Positions 10,115 through 18,751 of a stretch of DNA of 64,000 bases are shown here, one piece after another (position 1 is the first letter of the stretch; every line of letters starts with the position of its first letter). The DNA comes from Escherichia coli (GTDB taxonomy: Bacteria; Pseudomonadota; Gammaproteobacteria; Enterobacterales; Enterobacteriaceae), in NCBI RefSeq assembly GCF_024502345.1, contig NZ_JALDNN010000001.1. One strand, 5' to 3'. The position numbers and the translations under genes are program-made. Below the pieces are notes generated by a model. That model saw only the letters and a program-made list of their open reading frames with translations. It did no database searches and was not told the origin of the DNA.

Positions 10115-10475
<361 letters not shown>

Positions 10476-12773: not shown

Positions 12774-13343
12774 ATGAAACGACTCATTGTAGGCATCAGC
12801 GGTGCCAGCGGCGCGATTTATGGCGTGCGCTTATTACAGGTTCTGCGCGATGTCACAGATATCGAAACGCATCTGGTGATGAGCCAGGCAGCGCGCCAGA
12901 CCTTATCCCTCGAAACGGATTTTTCTCTGCGCGAAGTGCAGGCATTAGCCGATGTCACGCACGATGCGCGCGATATTGCCGCCAGCATCTCTTCCGGTTC
13001 TTTCCAGACGCTGGGGATGGTGATTTTACCCTGTTCAATCAAAACCCTTTCCGGCATTGTCCATAGCTATACTGATGGCTTACTGACCCGTGCGGCAGAT
13101 GTGGTGCTGAAAGAGCGTCGCCCGTTGGTGCTCTGCGTGCGTGAAACACCATTGCACTTAGGCCATCTGCGTTTAATGACTCAGGCGGCAGAAATCGGTG
13201 CGGTGATTATGCCTCCCGTTCCGGCGTTTTATCATCGCCCGCAATCCCTTGATGATGTGATAAATCAGACGGTTAATCGTGTTCTTGACCAGTTTGCAAT
13301 AACCCTTCCTGAAGATCTCTTTGCCCGCTGGCAGGGCGCATAA
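12774..13343 (+). CDS. ubiX: flavin prenyltransferase UbiX
   Basis: 189-aa ORF; flavoprotein motif GISGASGA. Confidence 0.9.
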   Translation: MKRLIVGISGASGAIYGVRLLQVLRDVTDIETHLVMSQAARQTLSLETDFSLREVQALADVTHDARDIAASISSGSFQTLGMVILPCSIKTLSGIVHSYTDGLLTRAADVVLKERRPLVLCVRETPLHLGHLRLMTQAAEIGAVIMPPVPAFYHRPQSLDDVINQTVNRVLDQFAITLPEDLFARWQGA

Positions 13344-13351
13344 CTCCGCTG

Positions 13352-13375
13352 TTGCCCTGTTTCAGGGCAATTTTG
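13352..13375 (+). terminator. rho-independent terminator after ubiX
   Basis: Stem ttgccct/agggcaa, loop gtttc, then tttt. Confidence 0.6.
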
Positions 13376-13524
13376 CAACCGCGATCAAATCCTCGACATT
13401 TTGTTTCTGCCATTCAATCGAAACGCTGCGATTCAACCGCTATACCTGCTATCTTCAACTTCAGGACAATAATGCAACGTCTTATTAACATATTTAACGT
13501 TGAATGTTACTGTTGTCGTCAAGA

Positions 13525-13540
13525 TGGCATAAGACCTGCA
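13525..13540 (+). promoter_or_regulatory. sigma54 (-24/-12) promoter candidate for argT
   Basis: TGGCAT-N5-CTGCA matches TGGCAC-N5-TTGCA with GG and GC correctly spaced; lies about 70 nt upstream of the argT ATG. Confidence 0.6.
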
Positions 13541-13608
13541 TGAAAGAGCCTGCAAACACACAACACAATACACAACATAAAAAAGCCATTTTCACTTGAG
13601 GGTTATGT

Positions 13609-14391
13609 ATGAAGAAGTCGATTCTCGCTCTGTCTTTGTTAGTCGGTCTCTCCGCAGCGGCTTCCAGCTATGCGGCGCTACCGGAGACGGTACGTATCGG
13701 AACCGATACCACCTATGCGCCGTTCTCGTCGAAAGATGCTAAAGGTGATTTTGTTGGCTTTGATATCGATCTCGGTAACGAGATGTGCAAACGGATGCAG
13801 GTGAAATGTACCTGGGTTGCCAGTGACTTTGACGCGCTGATCCCCTCACTGAAAGCGAAAAAAATCGACGCCATTATTTCGTCGCTTTCCATTACCGATA
13901 AACGTCAGCAGGAGATTGCCTTCTCCGACAAGCTGTACGCCGCAGATTCTCGTTTGATTGCTGCCAAAGGTTCACCGATTCAGCCAACGCTGGATTCACT
14001 GAAAGGTAAACATGTTGGTGTGCTGCAGGGATCAACCCAGGAAGCTTACGCTAACGAGACCTGGCGTAGCAAAGGCGTGGATGTGGTGGCCTATGCCAAC
14101 CAGGATTTGGTCTATTCCGATCTGGCTGCAGGACGTCTGGATGCTGCGTTACAAGATGAAGTTGCTGCCAGCGAAGGATTCCTCAAGCAACCTGCTGGTA
14201 AAGATTTCGCCTTTGCTGGCTCATCAGTAAAAGACAAAAAATACTTCGGTGATGGCACCGGTGTAGGGCTACGTAAAGATGATGCTGAACTGACGGCTGC
14301 CTTCAATAAGGCGCTTGGCGAGCTGCGTCAGGACGGCACCTACGACAAGATGGCGAAAAAGTATTTCGACTTTAATGTCTACGGTGACTGA
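13609..14391 (+). CDS. argT: lysine/arginine/ornithine periplasmic binding protein
   Basis: 260-aa ORF with a signal peptide; paralog of the downstream hisJ. Confidence 0.9.
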
Positions 14392-14611
14392 TACGTCGCT
14401 GGGAAGTTGTACCTGATGGAATGATCATCATGGTGCACGCCAGGTTTGTTGCACTATCGTGGTGCATTGAAATGCATACTTAAGCATTTTTAATGAAAAA
14501 TAATACGTCTAACGGGGCGGGATATTTTGCCTTGATGGTCAATTTTATGGCACGATAAGTGTAACAAACCTGTAAATATTCCCTATAAAAAGACTGTCAG
14601 TTGAGGACATT

Positions 14612-15394
14612 ATGAAAAAACTGGTGCTATCGCTCTCTCTGGTTCTGGCCTTCTCCAGCGCAACTGCGGCGTTTGCTGCGATTCCGCAAAACATCCGCAT
14701 CGGTACCGACCCGACCTATGCGCCATTTGAATCAAAAAATTCACAAGGCGAACTGGTTGGCTTCGATATCGATCTGGCAAAGGAATTATGCAAACGCATC
14801 AATACGCAATGTACGTTTGTCGAAAATCCGCTGGATGCGTTAATCCCGTCCTTAAAAGCGAAGAAGATTGACGCCATCATGTCATCGCTTTCCATTACGG
14901 AAAAACGTCAGCAAGAAATAGCCTTCACCGACAAACTGTACGCTGCCGATTCTCGTTTGGTGGTGGCGAAAAATTCTGACATTCAGCCGACAGTCGAGTC
15001 GCTGAAAGGCAAACGGGTAGGCGTATTGCAGGGCACCACCCAGGAGACGTTCGGTAATGAACATTGGGCACCAAAAGGCATTGAAATCGTCTCGTATCAG
15101 GGGCAGGACAACATTTATTCTGACCTGACTGCCGGACGTATTGATGCCGCGTTCCAGGATGAGGTCGCTGCCAGCGAAGGTTTCCTCAAACAACCTGTCG
15201 GTAAAGATTACAAATTCGGTGGCCCGTCTGTTAAAGATGAAAAACTGTTTGGCGTAGGGACCGGCATGGGCCTGCGTAAAGAAGATAACGAACTGCGCGA
15301 AGCACTGAACAAAGCCTTTGCCGAAATGCGCGCTGACGGTACTTACGAGAAATTAGCGAAAAAGTACTTCGATTTTGATGTTTATGGTGGCTAA
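14612..15394 (+). CDS. hisJ: histidine periplasmic binding protein
   Basis: 260-aa ORF with a signal peptide; family-3 solute-binding protein; directly upstream of hisQMP. Confidence 0.9.
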
Positions 15395-15418
15395 TCGCCA
15401 TCGGTGAAAGAAAGCCCG

Positions 15419-15442
15419 CTCCCTTCGGGTAACCGGAGGGAG
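15419..15442 (+). other. intercistronic stem-loop between hisJ and hisQ
   Basis: cucccuucgg/ccggagggag stem (two G-U pairs) capped by a GUAA (GNRA) tetraloop. Confidence 0.5.
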
Positions 15443-15483
15443 ACAAGAGGCGGTAATTCACCACACACGACAGGACAGGCAGC

Positions 15484-16170
15484 ATGTTGTATGGGTTTTC
15501 AGGTGTTATTTTACAGGGTGCGCTCGTCACGCTGGAGCTGGCTATCAGCTCTGTAGTGCTCGCTGTAATCATCGGTTTAATTGGCGCTGGCGGTAAGCTC
15601 TCGCAAAATCGGCTTTCGGGGCTGATTTTCGAAGGGTACACCACGCTGATTCGTGGCGTGCCGGACTTAGTGTTGATGCTGCTGATTTTCTACGGTTTGC
15701 AGATTGCGCTAAACACGGTGACGGAGGCGATGGGCGTCGGGCAGATTGATATCGATCCGATGGTCGCTGGTATTATCACTCTCGGTTTTATCTACGGTGC
15801 TTATTTTACCGAAACGTTCCGTGGTGCTTTTATGGCAGTGCCGAAAGGACATATAGAGGCGGCGACGGCGTTCGGTTTTACTCGTGGGCAAGTGTTTCGG
15901 CGGATCATGTTTCCGGCGATGATGCGTTACGCCCTGCCAGGCATTGGCAACAACTGGCAGGTGATCCTCAAATCTACCGCACTGGTTTCGTTACTCGGCC
16001 TGGAAGATGTGGTCAAAGCCACCCAACTGGCAGGCAAAAGTACCTGGGAACCGTTCTATTTCGCCATCGTCTGTGGCGTGATTTACCTGGTTTTCACCAC
16101 TGTTTCCAATGGTGTGCTGCTGTTCCTTGAGCGCCGCTACTCCGTGGGTGTGAAGAGGGCTGACCTGTGA
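15484..16170 (+). CDS. hisQ: histidine/LAO ABC transporter permease
   Basis: 228-aa membrane ORF; ABC permease EAA-type motif EAATAFGFTRGQ. Confidence 0.9.
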   Translation: MLYGFSGVILQGALVTLELAISSVVLAVIIGLIGAGGKLSQNRLSGLIFEGYTTLIRGVPDLVLMLLIFYGLQIALNTVTEAMGVGQIDIDPMVAGIITLGFIYGAYFTETFRGAFMAVPKGHIEAATAFGFTRGQVFRRIMFPAMMRYALPGIGNNWQVILKSTALVSLLGLEDVVKATQLAGKSTWEPFYFAIVCGVIYLVFTTVSNGVLLFLERRYSVGVKRADL

Positions 16171-16883
16171 TCGAAATCTTACATGAATACTGGAAACCGC
16201 TGCTGTGGACCGACGGTTATCGCTTTACTGGTGTGGCGATCACTCTGTGGCTGCTTATTTTGTCGGTAGTGATAGGCGGAGTCCTGGCGCTGTTTCTGGC
16301 GATTGGTCGTGTCTCCAGTAATAAATACATCCAGTTTCCAATCTGGTTATTTACCTATATTTTTCGCGGTACGCCGCTGTATGTTCAGTTGCTGGTGTTC
16401 TATTCCGGCATGTACACGCTTGAGATTGTTAAGGGAACCGAATTCCTTAACGCTTTCTTCCGCAGTGGCCTGAACTGTACCGTGCTGGCGCTGACGCTTA
16501 ACACCTGCGCTTACACTACCGAGATTTTTGCTGGGGCAATCCGTTCGGTTCCGCATGGGGAAATTGAAGCCGCCAGAGCCTATGGCTTCTCGACTTTTAA
16601 AATGTATCGTTGCATTATTTTGCCTTCTGCGCTGCGTATTGCGTTACCGGCATACAGCAACGAAGTGATCCTGATGCTGCACTCTACTGCGCTGGCGTTT
16701 ACGGCCACTGTGCCGGATCTGCTGAAAATAGCCCGCGATATTAACGCCGCCACGTATCAACCTTTTACCGCCTTCGGCATTGCCGCGGTGCTCTATTTAA
16801 TCATCTCTTATGTCCTGATCAGCCTCTTTCGCAGAGCGGAAAAACGCTGGTTGCAGCATGTGAAACCTTCTTCAACGCACTGA
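16167..16883 (+). CDS. hisM: histidine/LAO ABC transporter permease
   Basis: 238-aa membrane [15 protein letters not shown] motif; 4-nt overlap with hisQ. Confidence 0.9.
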
Positions 16884-16890
16884 GAATACG

Positions 16891-17664
16891 ATGTCCGAGA
16901 ATAAATTAAACGTTATCGATTTGCACAAACGCTACGGCGAACACGAAGTGCTGAAAGGGGTCTCACTACAAGCGAATGCCGGAGATGTAATAAGCATCAT
17001 CGGATCGTCGGGCTCGGGAAAAAGTACCTTTCTGCGCTGCATTAACTTCCTCGAAAAACCGAGCGAAGGATCGATCGTGGTCAATGGCCAGACGATCAAT
17101 CTGGTGCGCGACAAAGACGGTCAACTCAAAGTCGCCGATAAAAATCAACTGCGCTTACTGCGCACACGCCTGACGATGGTATTCCAGCACTTCAATCTCT
17201 GGAGCCATATGACGGTGCTGGAAAACGTCATGGAAGCGCCGATTCAGGTGTTGGGCCTGAGCAAGCAGGAAGCGCGCGAGCGGGCGGTGAAGTATCTGGC
17301 AAAAGTCGGGATAGACGAACGTGCACAGGGGAAATATCCGGTGCATCTTTCCGGCGGTCAGCAACAGCGTGTTTCTATCGCGCGGGCGCTGGCGATGGAA
17401 CCGGAAGTTTTACTGTTTGATGAACCTACCTCGGCGCTCGATCCTGAACTGGTAGGCGAAGTGCTGCGCATTATGCAGCAGCTGGCGGAAGAGGGAAAAA
17501 CCATGGTGGTAGTGACTCACGAAATGGGCTTTGCTCGTCATGTTTCTACTCACGTCATTTTCCTCCATCAGGGGAAAATAGAGGAAGAAGGCGCGCCGGA
17601 GCAGTTATTTGGCAACCCGCAAAGCCCTCGTCTGCAACAGTTCCTTAAAGGTTCGCTGAAATAA
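16891..17664 (+). CDS. hisP: histidine/LAO ABC transporter ATP-binding protein
   Basis: 257-aa ORF; Walker [13 protein letters not shown] signature LSGGQQQR, Walker [12 protein letters not shown]. Confidence 0.95.
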
Positions 17665-17670
17665 TTGCCT

Positions 17671-17700
17671 CTCCGGTGGCTAACGCCGCCGGAGTATTTT
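17671..17700 (+). terminator. rho-independent terminator after hisP
   Basis: Stem ctccggtggc/gccgccggag followed by tatttt. Confidence 0.6.
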
Positions 17701-17860
17701 CAAGGGGAATTTGCGAGTCAGCTTCCGCTGAAATGTAAAAGTTGCAGTCCGCTAAAAATAGTTCTGAATTCGCTGTCCAAAGATAAAAACTGCCTGCTGC
17801 ATTGGGTGTTAATCGTGGTTATTGTCGCGTCATCTTAAATTTGAGGGGTGACGGAACGCC

Positions 17861-18751
17861 ATGACAATATCGACAACTTCCACGCCGCATGATGCGGTAT
17901 TTAAATCTTTTTTACGCCATCCAGACACCGCGCGGGATTTTATTGATATTCATCTTCCCGCGCCGCTGCGCAAACTGTGTGATTTAACGACGCTTAAACT
18001 GGAACCAAACAGTTTTATTGATGACGACCTGCGGCAATATTATTCCGACCTCTTGTGGTCTGTGAAAACGCAGGAGGGAGTGGGTTATATTTATGTAGTG
18101 ATAGAGCACCAAAGTAAGCCGGAAGAATTAATGGCTTTTCGCATGATGCGTTATTCCATTGCGGCAATGCAAAACCATCTTGATGCGGGCTATAAAGAGC
18201 TTCCATTGGTGATCCCGATGCTGTTTTATCATGGTTGCAGAAGTCCTTATCCTTATTCACTCTGCTGGCTTGATGAATTTGCCGAGCCTGCTATAGCCCG
18301 CAAAATATATTCATCAGCGTTTCCGTTGGTGGATATTACCGTGGTGCCGGATGACGAGATTATGCAACACCGCAAAATGGCGCTGTTGGAGTTAATTCAG
18401 AAACATATTCGTCAGCGCGATCTGTTGGGATTAGTCGACCAAATTGTTTCGCTGCTAGTTACAGGGAACACTAATGACAGACAGCTAAAAGCCCTGTTTA
18501 ATTACGTATTACAAACAGGGGATGCCCAGCGTTTTCGTGCATTTATTGGTGAGATAGCGGAACGCGCACCACAAGAAAAGGAGAAACTGATGACCATTGC
18601 TGACAGATTACGTGAAGAAGGCGCAATGCAGGGCAAACACGAAGAAGCCCTGCGTATTGCTCAGGAGATGCTGGATAGAGGTTTAGACAGAGAGTTAGTT
18701 ATGATGGTGACCCGACTTTCACCAGACGATCTTATCGCGCAAAGCCACTAA
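17861..18751 (+). CDS. rpnB: recombination-promoting nuclease RpnB (YhgA-like, PD-(D/E)XK family)
   Basis: 296-aa ORF; N-terminal FKSFL/HDAVFK YhgA-like signature; sits between hisP and yfcH as K-12 yfcI does. Confidence 0.8.
18590..18751 (+). CDS. candidate nested small protein: in-frame internal start in the rpnB 3' end (53 aa, identical to the RpnB C-terminal tail)
   Basis: Internal ATG at 18590 preceded by AAGGAG (18578-18583) with a 6-nt spacer; no expression evidence is available from sequence. Confidence 0.35.

What the first reader, a model, noticed from the sequence alone, without database searches (positions are those of the whole stretch)
15395..15483. Stable GNRA-capped stem-loop between hisJ and hisQ
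A 10-bp stem with a GUAA tetraloop follows the hisJ stop and has no U tract. This is the arrangement classically associated with protecting the upstream binding-protein message from 3' exonucleases, which gives more binding protein than permease from one operon.
Basis: partly seen in the sequence, partly recalled or inferred. Interest (0 to 1): 0.25.

Follow-up and report, generated by a model that had tools for sequence, protein, structure and literature searches.

The report
Known hisJ mRNA-protecting hairpin
The hairpin between the E. coli hisJ and hisQ genes is real and conserved, and a 2018 transcriptome study already lists it as the structure that ends and protects a stable hisJ message, so it is an ordinary, known feature.

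Summary
The window is E. coli. The hairpin is real: 10 bp (one G-U), GUAA loop, window 15419-15442, starting 24 nt after the hisJ stop, with no U tract, -19.9 kcal/mol. It is one of the most stable compact hairpins in the 64 kb.

Dar & Sorek 2018 (PLoS Genet, S3 and S6 Tables) list this exact sequence and fold as a "3' protective structure". Their Term-seq 3' end lies 6 nt past the stem (window 15448). They report a hisJ/hisQ half-life ratio of 3.7 and a steady-state mRNA ratio of 5.8.

My comparison of 80 Enterobacteriaceae species adds context:
- All 80 carry a U-tract-less hairpin at this position (median -20.8 kcal/mol), built from several unrelated stem sequences.
- The Klebsiella/Kluyvera type shows compensatory changes.
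- Salmonella and most Citrobacter carry a pair of REP elements between the same flanks.
- The GNRA loop is incidental (5 of 80 species; it varies within Escherichia).
- The element is single-copy, not a REP, not a terminator, and matches no Rfam family.
- The CA-rich tract downstream is part of the published GcvB-repressed hisQ initiation region.

Verdict: observation confirmed, interpretation supported, already known, low interest. No hairpin mutant was found in the papers I could read.

The parts
14612..15394 (+). hisJ coding sequence (histidine-binding periplasmic protein), the stabilised upstream cistron
   Evidence: ORF list; RefSeq annotation of 100%-identical E. coli records; MG1655 b2309.
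15395..15483 (+). hisJ-hisQ intergenic spacer (89 nt), the coordinates given in the finding
   Evidence: Single copy in 5425 of 5426 complete E. coli genomes, with no annotated feature. No Rfam match.
15419..15442 (+). Inner stem-loop: 5' arm 15419-15428, loop GUAA 15429-15432, 3' arm 15433-15442; 10 bp including one U-G
   Evidence: The same fold and energy (-19.9 kcal/mol) appear in Dar & Sorek 2018 S6 Table.
15414..15451 (+). Predicted extension of the stem (GCCCG 15414-15418 paired with bases within 15444-15451 across small internal loops); the mapped 3' end cuts through its 3' half
   Evidence: Minimum-free-energy fold of the spacer. Prediction only. In Escherichia the common polymorphism C15415T falls here.
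15448..15448 (+). Published Term-seq RNA 3' end of the stable hisJ segment, 6 nt downstream of the stem
   Evidence: Dar & Sorek 2018 S6 Table: the 60 nt upstream of the 3' end end in ...GGAGGGAGACAAGA. I mapped this onto the window sequence by eye. It corresponds to MG1655 position about 2425952, minus strand.
15403..15462 (+). Predicted outer helix GGUGAA (15403-15408) with UUCACC (15457-15462), possible only in the unprocessed polycistronic RNA
   Evidence: prediction. Not supported by covariation. Status uncertain.
15460..15483 (+). Conserved CA-rich tract and Shine-Dalgarno region of hisQ (ACCACACACGACAGGACAGGCAGC); probable pairing site of the GcvB R1 seed
   Evidence: Nearly invariant across genera. 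GcvB represses a hisJ-hisQ intraoperonic sfGFP fusion through R1 (Miyakoshi et al. 2022, PMC9299463). The best R1 duplex in the spacer covers 15449-15488, but the naive energy is not specific. The exact site is inferred.
15484..16170 (+). hisQ coding sequence (permease subunit), first cistron of the less stable hisQMP segment

Best explanation
The stem-loop at 15419-15442 is a 3' protective structure of the argT-hisJQMP / hisJQMP polycistronic mRNA.

Proposed sequence of events:
1. The operon is transcribed through the spacer; there is no U tract, so the hairpin is not an intrinsic terminator.
2. The poorly translated, GcvB-repressible hisQMP part is attacked first, presumably by an endonuclease such as RNase E downstream of the hairpin (inferred).
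3. 3'-to-5' exonucleases (PNPase, RNase II) then degrade back to the hairpin and stall a few nucleotides short of it.
4. This leaves a translatable hisJ message ending at window 15448 that outlives hisQMP.

The result is several-fold more hisJ than hisQ mRNA, which contributes to the required excess of binding protein over membrane transporter.

Shown: the structure, its conservation, the in vivo 3' end, and the differences in half-life and steady-state level (the last three from the literature). Inferred: the identity of the nucleases, the initiating cleavage, and causality of the hairpin itself.
For: - Structure: real and exceptional for this window.
- Published Term-seq 3' end: 6 nt past the stem, with hisJ classed as the stabilised gene, half-life ratio 3.72 and steady-state ratio 5.83 (PMC5927463 S3 and S6 Tables).
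- Salmonella SL1344: the same gene pair is differentially expressed (4.77 +/- 0.47), with the 3' end inside the REP pair that occupies the same position.
- Comparative: 80 of 80 species-level Enterobacteriaceae genomes have a compact hairpin in this spacer (median -20.8 kcal/mol), and 0 of 80 are followed by a U tract.
- Shuffle control: 63 non-REP spacers average -20.8 kcal/mol against -11.8 +/- 3.4 for dinucleotide shuffles, with 4 of 504 shuffles as good.
- Sequence turnover: the stems belong to several unrelated sequence types.
- Covariation: in the Klebsiella/Raoultella/Kluyvera type, 6 of 12 pairs carry changes on both sides, 93.8% of cells are paired, and 0 of 500 shuffles reach the covariation score. 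Slid controls pair 26-53%.
- Rho: no Rho termination region is listed for hisQ or the spacer in Adams 2021, whereas hisP and argT have one each.
Against: - The half-life ratio has no replicate SD, and the Moffitt 2016 data in the same table give only 1.39. Part of the 5.8-fold steady-state difference may therefore arise otherwise.
- Adams et al. 2021 curated 3' ends (three conditions) contain no hisJ-hisQ end. They also lack malE, so that list seems insensitive to processed ends.
- I found no hairpin mutant for E. coli.
- In the Enterobacter-type group the stem hardly varies, so it gives little covariation evidence.
- The 80 genomes are related, so 80 of 80 is not 80 independent events.
Confidence: 0.8

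Rival explanations
1. The hisJ 3' end and the drop in hisQMP mRNA come mainly from premature transcription termination just downstream. This could be Rho-dependent when hisQ translation is low or repressed by GcvB, or pause-assisted. The hairpin would then only mark where trimming stops, and differential decay would be secondary.
For: - The steady-state ratio (5.83) exceeds the half-life ratio (3.72, no SD; 1.39 in Moffitt 2016).
- hisQ translation is repressed by GcvB, which could uncouple transcription from translation.
- Rho regions exist elsewhere in the operon, internal to hisP and argT.
Against: - No Rho termination region is listed for hisQ or the spacer in Adams 2021 supplementary file 2.
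- Dar & Sorek excluded gene pairs with intrinsic terminator motifs or previously described substantial Rho termination before calling differential decay.
- There is no U tract after the stem in any of the 80 species.
- Even in this scenario the hairpin still acts as the exonuclease stop that defines the stable 3' end.
Confidence: 0.12
2. The hairpin's main role is in hisQ translation or sRNA access. In the full-length RNA its extended form (outer helix 15403-15408 with 15457-15462) would shape the accessibility of the CA-rich GcvB site and the hisQ ribosome-binding site. Alternatively it would prevent ribosomes finishing hisJ from re-initiating at hisQ.
For: - The predicted outer helix abuts the CA-rich tract.
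- GcvB acts on this spacer.
- The spacer downstream of the hairpin is highly conserved.
- The protein-level excess of binding proteins (10- to 200-fold) needs translational control beyond a roughly 6-fold mRNA effect.
Against: - The outer helix has no covariation support and is absent from the Klebsiella/Kluyvera spacers, which are only 63-66 nt long.
- The inner hairpin lies 41 nt from the ATG and leaves the Shine-Dalgarno region unpaired.
- This role would not explain the mapped 3' end. It is best seen as a possible additional function.
Confidence: 0.06
3. The hairpin has no function. It would be a chance palindrome or a decayed remnant of a mobile repeat (REP or other miniature element).
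For: - Salmonella and many Citrobacter carry REP pairs at the same position, showing the spacer tolerates insertions.
- One E. coli strain carries an IS element inserted here.
Against: - The element is single-copy in E. coli.
- It has no match to the REP core, which occurs 9 times elsewhere in the window.
- A hairpin is present in 80 of 80 species, with compensatory changes.
- The inner 9 bp are invariant in Escherichia, while the loop and flanks vary.
Confidence: 0.02

Closest known systems
The hisJ-hisQ '3' protective structure' itself, as catalogued by Dar & Sorek 2018 (PLoS Genet 14:e1007354, S6 Table)
   Same: Identical sequence, identical predicted stem, identical energy (-19.9 kcal/mol). 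A 3' end is mapped 6 nt downstream and hisJ is classed as the stabilised gene.
   Different: Nothing differs; it is the same object. That paper lists it only in supplementary tables, without mutational test or cross-genus comparison of this particular spacer beyond Salmonella.
malE-malF intercistronic REP stabiliser of E. coli (Newbury et al. 1987, as summarised in PMC5927463)
   Same: It lies after the binding-protein gene of an ABC importer operon. It is a stable stem-loop without a U tract that blocks 3'-to-5' exonucleases after downstream cleavage. malE is 3.2-fold more stable than malF.
   Different: The malE-malF element is made of REP sequences, a dispersed repeat family. The hisJ-hisQ hairpin of E. 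coli is unique in the genome and unrelated in sequence.
Salmonella hisJ-hisQ intercistronic REP pair (Stern, Prossnitz & Ames 1988, Mol Microbiol 2:141; citation seen in PMC3337134; paper not readable here)
   Same: Same operon and same position. The conserved flanks GATAAAGCCC... and ...AAAAGAGGC bracket either the hairpin (4 Citrobacter species) or the REP pair (Salmonella, C. freundii complex); Escherichia keeps closely related flanks (GAAAGCCCG... and ...ACAAGAGGC). The Term-seq 3' end in SL1344 lies inside the REP pair, with a hisJ/hisQ ratio of 4.8.
   Different: It consists of two inverted REPs about 100 nt longer than the E. coli hairpin, and these belong to a mobile repeat family. What that paper found experimentally is from my memory only and was not checked.
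Rho-independent (intrinsic) terminators
   Same: G+C-rich stem-loop at the end of a cistron.
   Different: No U tract follows the stem. Transcription continues into hisQMP, and the true terminator-like site of the operon follows hisP at 17671-17694.

Membership tests
3' protective stem-loops of differentially decaying operons (malE-malF type) | Stable stem-loop immediately downstream of the stabilised cistron, inside a polycistronic transcript | tested here: met
   10-bp stem, -19.9 kcal/mol, starting 24 nt after the hisJ stop. Extreme for the window.
3' protective stem-loops of differentially decaying operons (malE-malF type) | Not an intrinsic terminator: no U tract after the stem | tested here: met
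   The tail is ACAAGAGGCG. The hairpin is not reported by the terminator scan on the + strand. 0 of 80 orthologous hairpins have 5 or more U in the 8 nt after the stem.
3' protective stem-loops of differentially decaying operons (malE-malF type) | An in vivo RNA 3' end a few nucleotides downstream of the stem | not testable with these tools
   Reported in the literature: Term-seq 3' end at BW25113 2419431, which is window 15448, 6 nt past the stem (PMC5927463 S6 Table). Not listed in Adams 2021 curated 3' ends, which also lack malE.
3' protective stem-loops of differentially decaying operons (malE-malF type) | Upstream segment more stable and more abundant than the downstream segment | not testable with these tools
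   Literature: half-life ratio 3.72 (no SD; 1.39 in Moffitt 2016) and steady-state ratio 5.83 +/- 2.81.
3' protective stem-loops of differentially decaying operons (malE-malF type) | Removing or weakening the stem destabilises the upstream message (causality) | not testable with these tools
   I found no mutant of the E. coli hairpin. Indirect support comes from structure conserved through sequence turnover and compensatory changes.
REP / BIME repetitive extragenic palindromes | Dispersed in many copies per genome | tested here: not met
   One place per genome in 5425 E. coli genomes, even for a 36-nt query at E <= 10. One match in the window at up to 3 mismatches.
REP / BIME repetitive extragenic palindromes | Match to the REP consensus core (CTTATCMGGCCTAC) | tested here: not met
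   The core occurs 9 times in the window (724, 10137-10451, 48234), none in the hisJ-hisQ spacer. Salmonella and Citrobacter orthologous spacers do contain it.
Intrinsic terminators | G+C-rich hairpin followed by a U-rich tract | tested here: not met
   The hairpin is present but there is no U tract.
Functional GNRA tetraloop motif | Loop sequence G-N-R-A conserved among orthologues | tested here: not met
   GUAA in the window fits GNRA. However, one E. coli lineage has GCUA and E. albertii has a 6-nt loop. Only 5 of 80 species have a GNRA loop.
Any curated RNA family (Rfam 15) | Score at or above the family gathering threshold | tested here: not met
   The only hit in 13000-18500 at E <= 10 is a chance match at 14458-14476 (18.6 bits against a gathering score of 32).

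The most novel reading that the evidence does not exclude
The hairpin and the adjacent GcvB-targeted hisQ initiation region may work as one module. When GcvB (abundant in rich medium) blocks hisQ translation, the naked hisQMP segment is cleaved and degraded, while the hairpin insulates hisJ. The sRNA would then tune the binding-protein-to-permease mRNA ratio rather than silencing the operon.

A further unexplained point is that 41 of 80 species keep an anti-Shine-Dalgarno-like 5' arm and an SD-like GGAGGG 3' arm almost unchanged. This could hint at a sequence-specific partner. Neither idea is tested.
Probability: 0.25. Interest if true: 0.35.

Novelty: already known. Interest (0 to 1): 0.1.

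Why it matters
It is a clean, textbook-style example of how one promoter can yield unequal amounts of the parts of an ABC importer: binding protein in excess and membrane complex scarce. The comparative result is a modest extra. Every enterobacterial genus examined keeps some U-tract-less hairpin at this position, whether a unique stem, an unrelated stem or a pair of REP elements. This suggests that what is selected is a stable stem, not its sequence or its GNRA loop, and that REPs in Salmonella occupy a position that already held a stabiliser. None of this changes current understanding.

Tried and rejected
- **Rfam scan** of 13000-18500 at E <= 10: nothing relevant.
- **REP membership:** rejected.
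- **Intrinsic terminator:** rejected, no U tract.
- **Internal sigma-70 promoter for hisQ:** none found in 13300-18000.
- **Joint MAFFT alignment of Escherichia, Citrobacter and Enterobacter spacers (A1):** it put the two arms one column out of register between groups. I did not use it for pair counts and analysed groups A2 and A3 separately.
- **Naive RNAduplex of GcvB:** against the full-length sRNA it gave meaningless long duplexes. Against R1 alone it found the CA-rich tract (-23.7 kcal/mol), but other places in the operon score as well (down to -26.5 kcal/mol). It therefore does not locate the site.
- **Independent confirmation of the 3' end in Adams et al. 2021:** the end is not listed, but neither is malE, so the absence is uninformative.
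- **Stern et al. 1988:** could not be read.
- **RepRanger paper:** does not mention hisJ or hisQ.
- **One malformed count of structure pairs** and **two malformed text searches** returned errors.

Full report
**What is there**

The window is Escherichia coli. Window 14600-16200 is 100% identical to many complete genomes, where the genes are annotated hisJ, hisQ and hisM. The 89-nt spacer is identical to K-12 MG1655.

The local gene order is argT (13609-14391), hisJ (14612-15394), hisQ (15484-16170), hisM (16167-16883) and hisP (16891-17664). A terminator-like site follows at 17671-17694.

In the spacer the sequence reads CTCCCTTCGG-GTAA-CCGGAGGGAG at 15419-15442. That is ten pairs, one of them U-G. 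The stem starts 24 nt after the hisJ stop and is followed by ACAAGAGGCG, with no U tract. Its coordinates cover the whole spacer.

**More than chance**

- The hairpin in 41 nt of context folds at -19.9 kcal/mol, z = -3.2, with 2 of 200 shuffles as good.
- The whole spacer folds at -33.2 kcal/mol, z = -3.3.
- Only 1 of 18,280 24-nt windows of the 64 kb (both strands) folds as well as the bare hairpin.

**Already documented**

Dar & Sorek 2018 (PMC5927463) measured RNA decay and mapped 3' ends genome-wide in E. coli BW25113. The main text names the histidine ABC system among those where the substrate-binding gene is selectively stabilised.

- S6 Table ('E. coli 3' protective structures') has a row for hisJ|hisQ with the upstream gene stabilised. 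The 3' end is at 2419431, and the 60 upstream bases are exactly window 15389-15448. The fold is the same 10-bp stem at -19.9 kcal/mol. The 3' end is therefore window 15448, 6 nt past the stem.
- S3 Table gives a hisJ/hisQ half-life ratio of 3.72 (no SD), a steady-state ratio of 5.83 +/- 2.81, and a ratio of 1.39 from the Moffitt 2016 data set.
- The Salmonella table gives a ratio of 4.77 +/- 0.47, with a 3' end inside the REP pair.

**Comparative anatomy (new here, but confirmatory)**

I fetched the hisQ locus from 80 species-level Enterobacteriaceae genomes and extracted the hisJ-hisQ spacers.

- Every one has a compact hairpin (span up to 40 nt). The median is -20.8 kcal/mol. The worst is -13.2 kcal/mol, in an Enterobacter mori draft whose spacer carries a run of eight C that I suspect is an assembly error.
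- None is followed by a U tract.
- For the 63 spacers without REPs, the observed mean is -20.8 kcal/mol against -11.8 +/- 3.4 in dinucleotide shuffles. Only 4 of 504 shuffles match their original.

The stems fall into unrelated sequence types:

| Group | 5' arm / 3' arm |
|---|---|
| Escherichia | CUCCCUUCGG / CCGGAGGGAG |
| Four Citrobacter species | CUCCCUCCUGC / GCGGGAGGGAG |
| About ten Enterobacter-like genera | CCCCUCCC / GGGAGGGG |
| Klebsiella, Raoultella | CCAUCGCGCGC / GCGCGCGAUGG |
| Kluyvera | CCCAUCG... / ...CGAUGGG |
| Pluralibacter, Pseudocitrobacter, Atlantibacter, Superficieibacter | other stems |

In Salmonella and most Citrobacter, a pair of inverted REPs sits between the same conserved flanks (GATAAAGCCC... 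and ...AAAAGAGGC) that bracket the simple hairpin in the other four Citrobacter. Escherichia has closely related flanks.

Covariation differs between groups:

- Klebsiella/Raoultella/Kluyvera: 6 of 12 pairs carry changes on both sides, 93.8% of cells are paired against 26-53% in slid controls, and 0 of 500 shuffles reach the covariation score.
- Enterobacter type: the stem is almost invariant, with 3 pairs showing double changes, so it says little.

The genomes are related, so these are not 80 independent observations. The independent replacements of the stem are the stronger argument.

**The GNRA loop**

Within Escherichia the nine basal pairs are invariant but the loop is not. It is GUAA in most, GCUA in one E. 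coli lineage, and a 6-nt loop in E. albertii. Across the 80 species only 5 loops fit GNRA. The cap is incidental.

In 5,425 E. coli genomes the 36-nt core is identical in 4,524. In 897 it is 95-99% identical; in the one such genome I examined the change is C15415T, outside the inner stem.

**What it is not**

- Not a REP. It is single-copy and has no REP core, although the core occurs nine times elsewhere in the window.
- Not an intrinsic terminator.
- Not any Rfam family.
- No promoter-like site precedes hisQ.

**The rest of the spacer**

Downstream of the hairpin lies a CA-rich tract and the hisQ Shine-Dalgarno region (15460-15483), nearly invariant across genera. Miyakoshi et al. 2022 (PMC9299463) showed that GcvB represses a hisJ-hisQ intraoperonic reporter through its R1 seed. 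My naive duplex calculation puts the best R1 pairing at 15449-15488 but is not specific. The exact site is therefore inferred.

**Mechanism**

The best-supported reading (confidence about 0.8) has four steps:

1. Transcription reads through the spacer.
2. The weakly translated, GcvB-repressible hisQMP segment is cleaved. RNase E is inferred; an AU-rich single-stranded GGUAAUUC lies just 3' of the mapped end.
3. PNPase or RNase II trims back and stalls 6 nt from the stem. Stalling a few nucleotides 3' of a stable duplex is established enzymology, cited here from my own knowledge.
4. A stable hisJ message remains.

**Caveats**

- The half-life evidence is a single estimate and is weaker in an independent data set.
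- Adams et al. 2021 do not list this 3' end. They do not list malE either.
- The same paper lists Rho regions inside hisP and argT but none in hisQ, which argues against Rho termination as the origin.
- mRNA stabilisation of about 6-fold cannot by itself give the 10- to 200-fold protein excess reported for type I binding proteins (PMC12094219).
- I found no report of a mutation of this hairpin in the papers I could read.

**Verdict**

The feature is already known, catalogued with coordinates, fold and energy in 2018, and interest is low. The only slightly open points are whether the hairpin and the GcvB site act as one module, and why the polypyrimidine/polypurine stem is so invariant in 41 of 80 species.

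Noticed in passing
L081 1462-2835 (E. coli TUM14697, NZ_CP128888.1); corresponds to about window 15425: An ISEc13 (IS4-like) transposase gene is inserted in the hisJ-hisQ spacer, splitting it inside the 5' arm of the hairpin. This is a natural allele that separates hisJ from hisQMP and destroys the stem.
   Followed up: partly
window 10137-10451, also 724-737 and 48234-48247: There are nine matches to the REP core CTTATCMGGCCTAC. Seven of them form a regularly spaced array (about 91-nt period, alternating orientation) at 10137-10451, which is a BIME-type cluster.
   Followed up: no
L016, L019 (Salmonella) and L006-L008, L010-L012, L015, L017, L018, L020, L021, L023-L025 (Citrobacter), spacers upstream of position 2501: In these species REP elements (one in L012, an inverted pair in the rest) occupy the slot that holds a simple CUCCCUCC hairpin in four other Citrobacter species, between the same conserved flanks; Escherichia has closely related flanks. 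This is consistent with a REP insertion replacing an older hairpin.
   Followed up: partly
window 15419-15442 and orthologues in 41 of 80 loci: The 5' arm is polypyrimidine and resembles the anti-Shine-Dalgarno CCUCC. The 3' arm is a strong SD-like GGAGGG. The core is nearly invariant across about ten genera, and no start codon follows it. Unexplained.
   Followed up: partly
L055 2212-2500: The record is labelled Citrobacter freundii M-21, but its hisJ-hisQ spacer resembles Atlantibacter and carries about 190 extra bases (289 nt in total). This may be a mislabelled genome with an insertion.
   Followed up: no
L078 2413-2500 (Enterobacter mori LMG 25706): The spacer has a run of eight C where relatives have CCCCTCCC, and other C substitutions that break the stem. 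This looks like sequencing or assembly error rather than biology.
   Followed up: no
window 17671-17694: A strong terminator-like hairpin (10 pairs, 8 G-C) with tail TATTTTCAAG lies right after hisP. It is the likely operon terminator.
   Followed up: no
hisP and argT coding regions (MG1655 2423859 and 2427233, minus strand): Adams et al. 2021 list Rho-dependent termination regions internal to hisP and to argT, and a strong 3' end 34 nt upstream of the argT ORF. None is listed for hisJ or hisQ.
   Followed up: no
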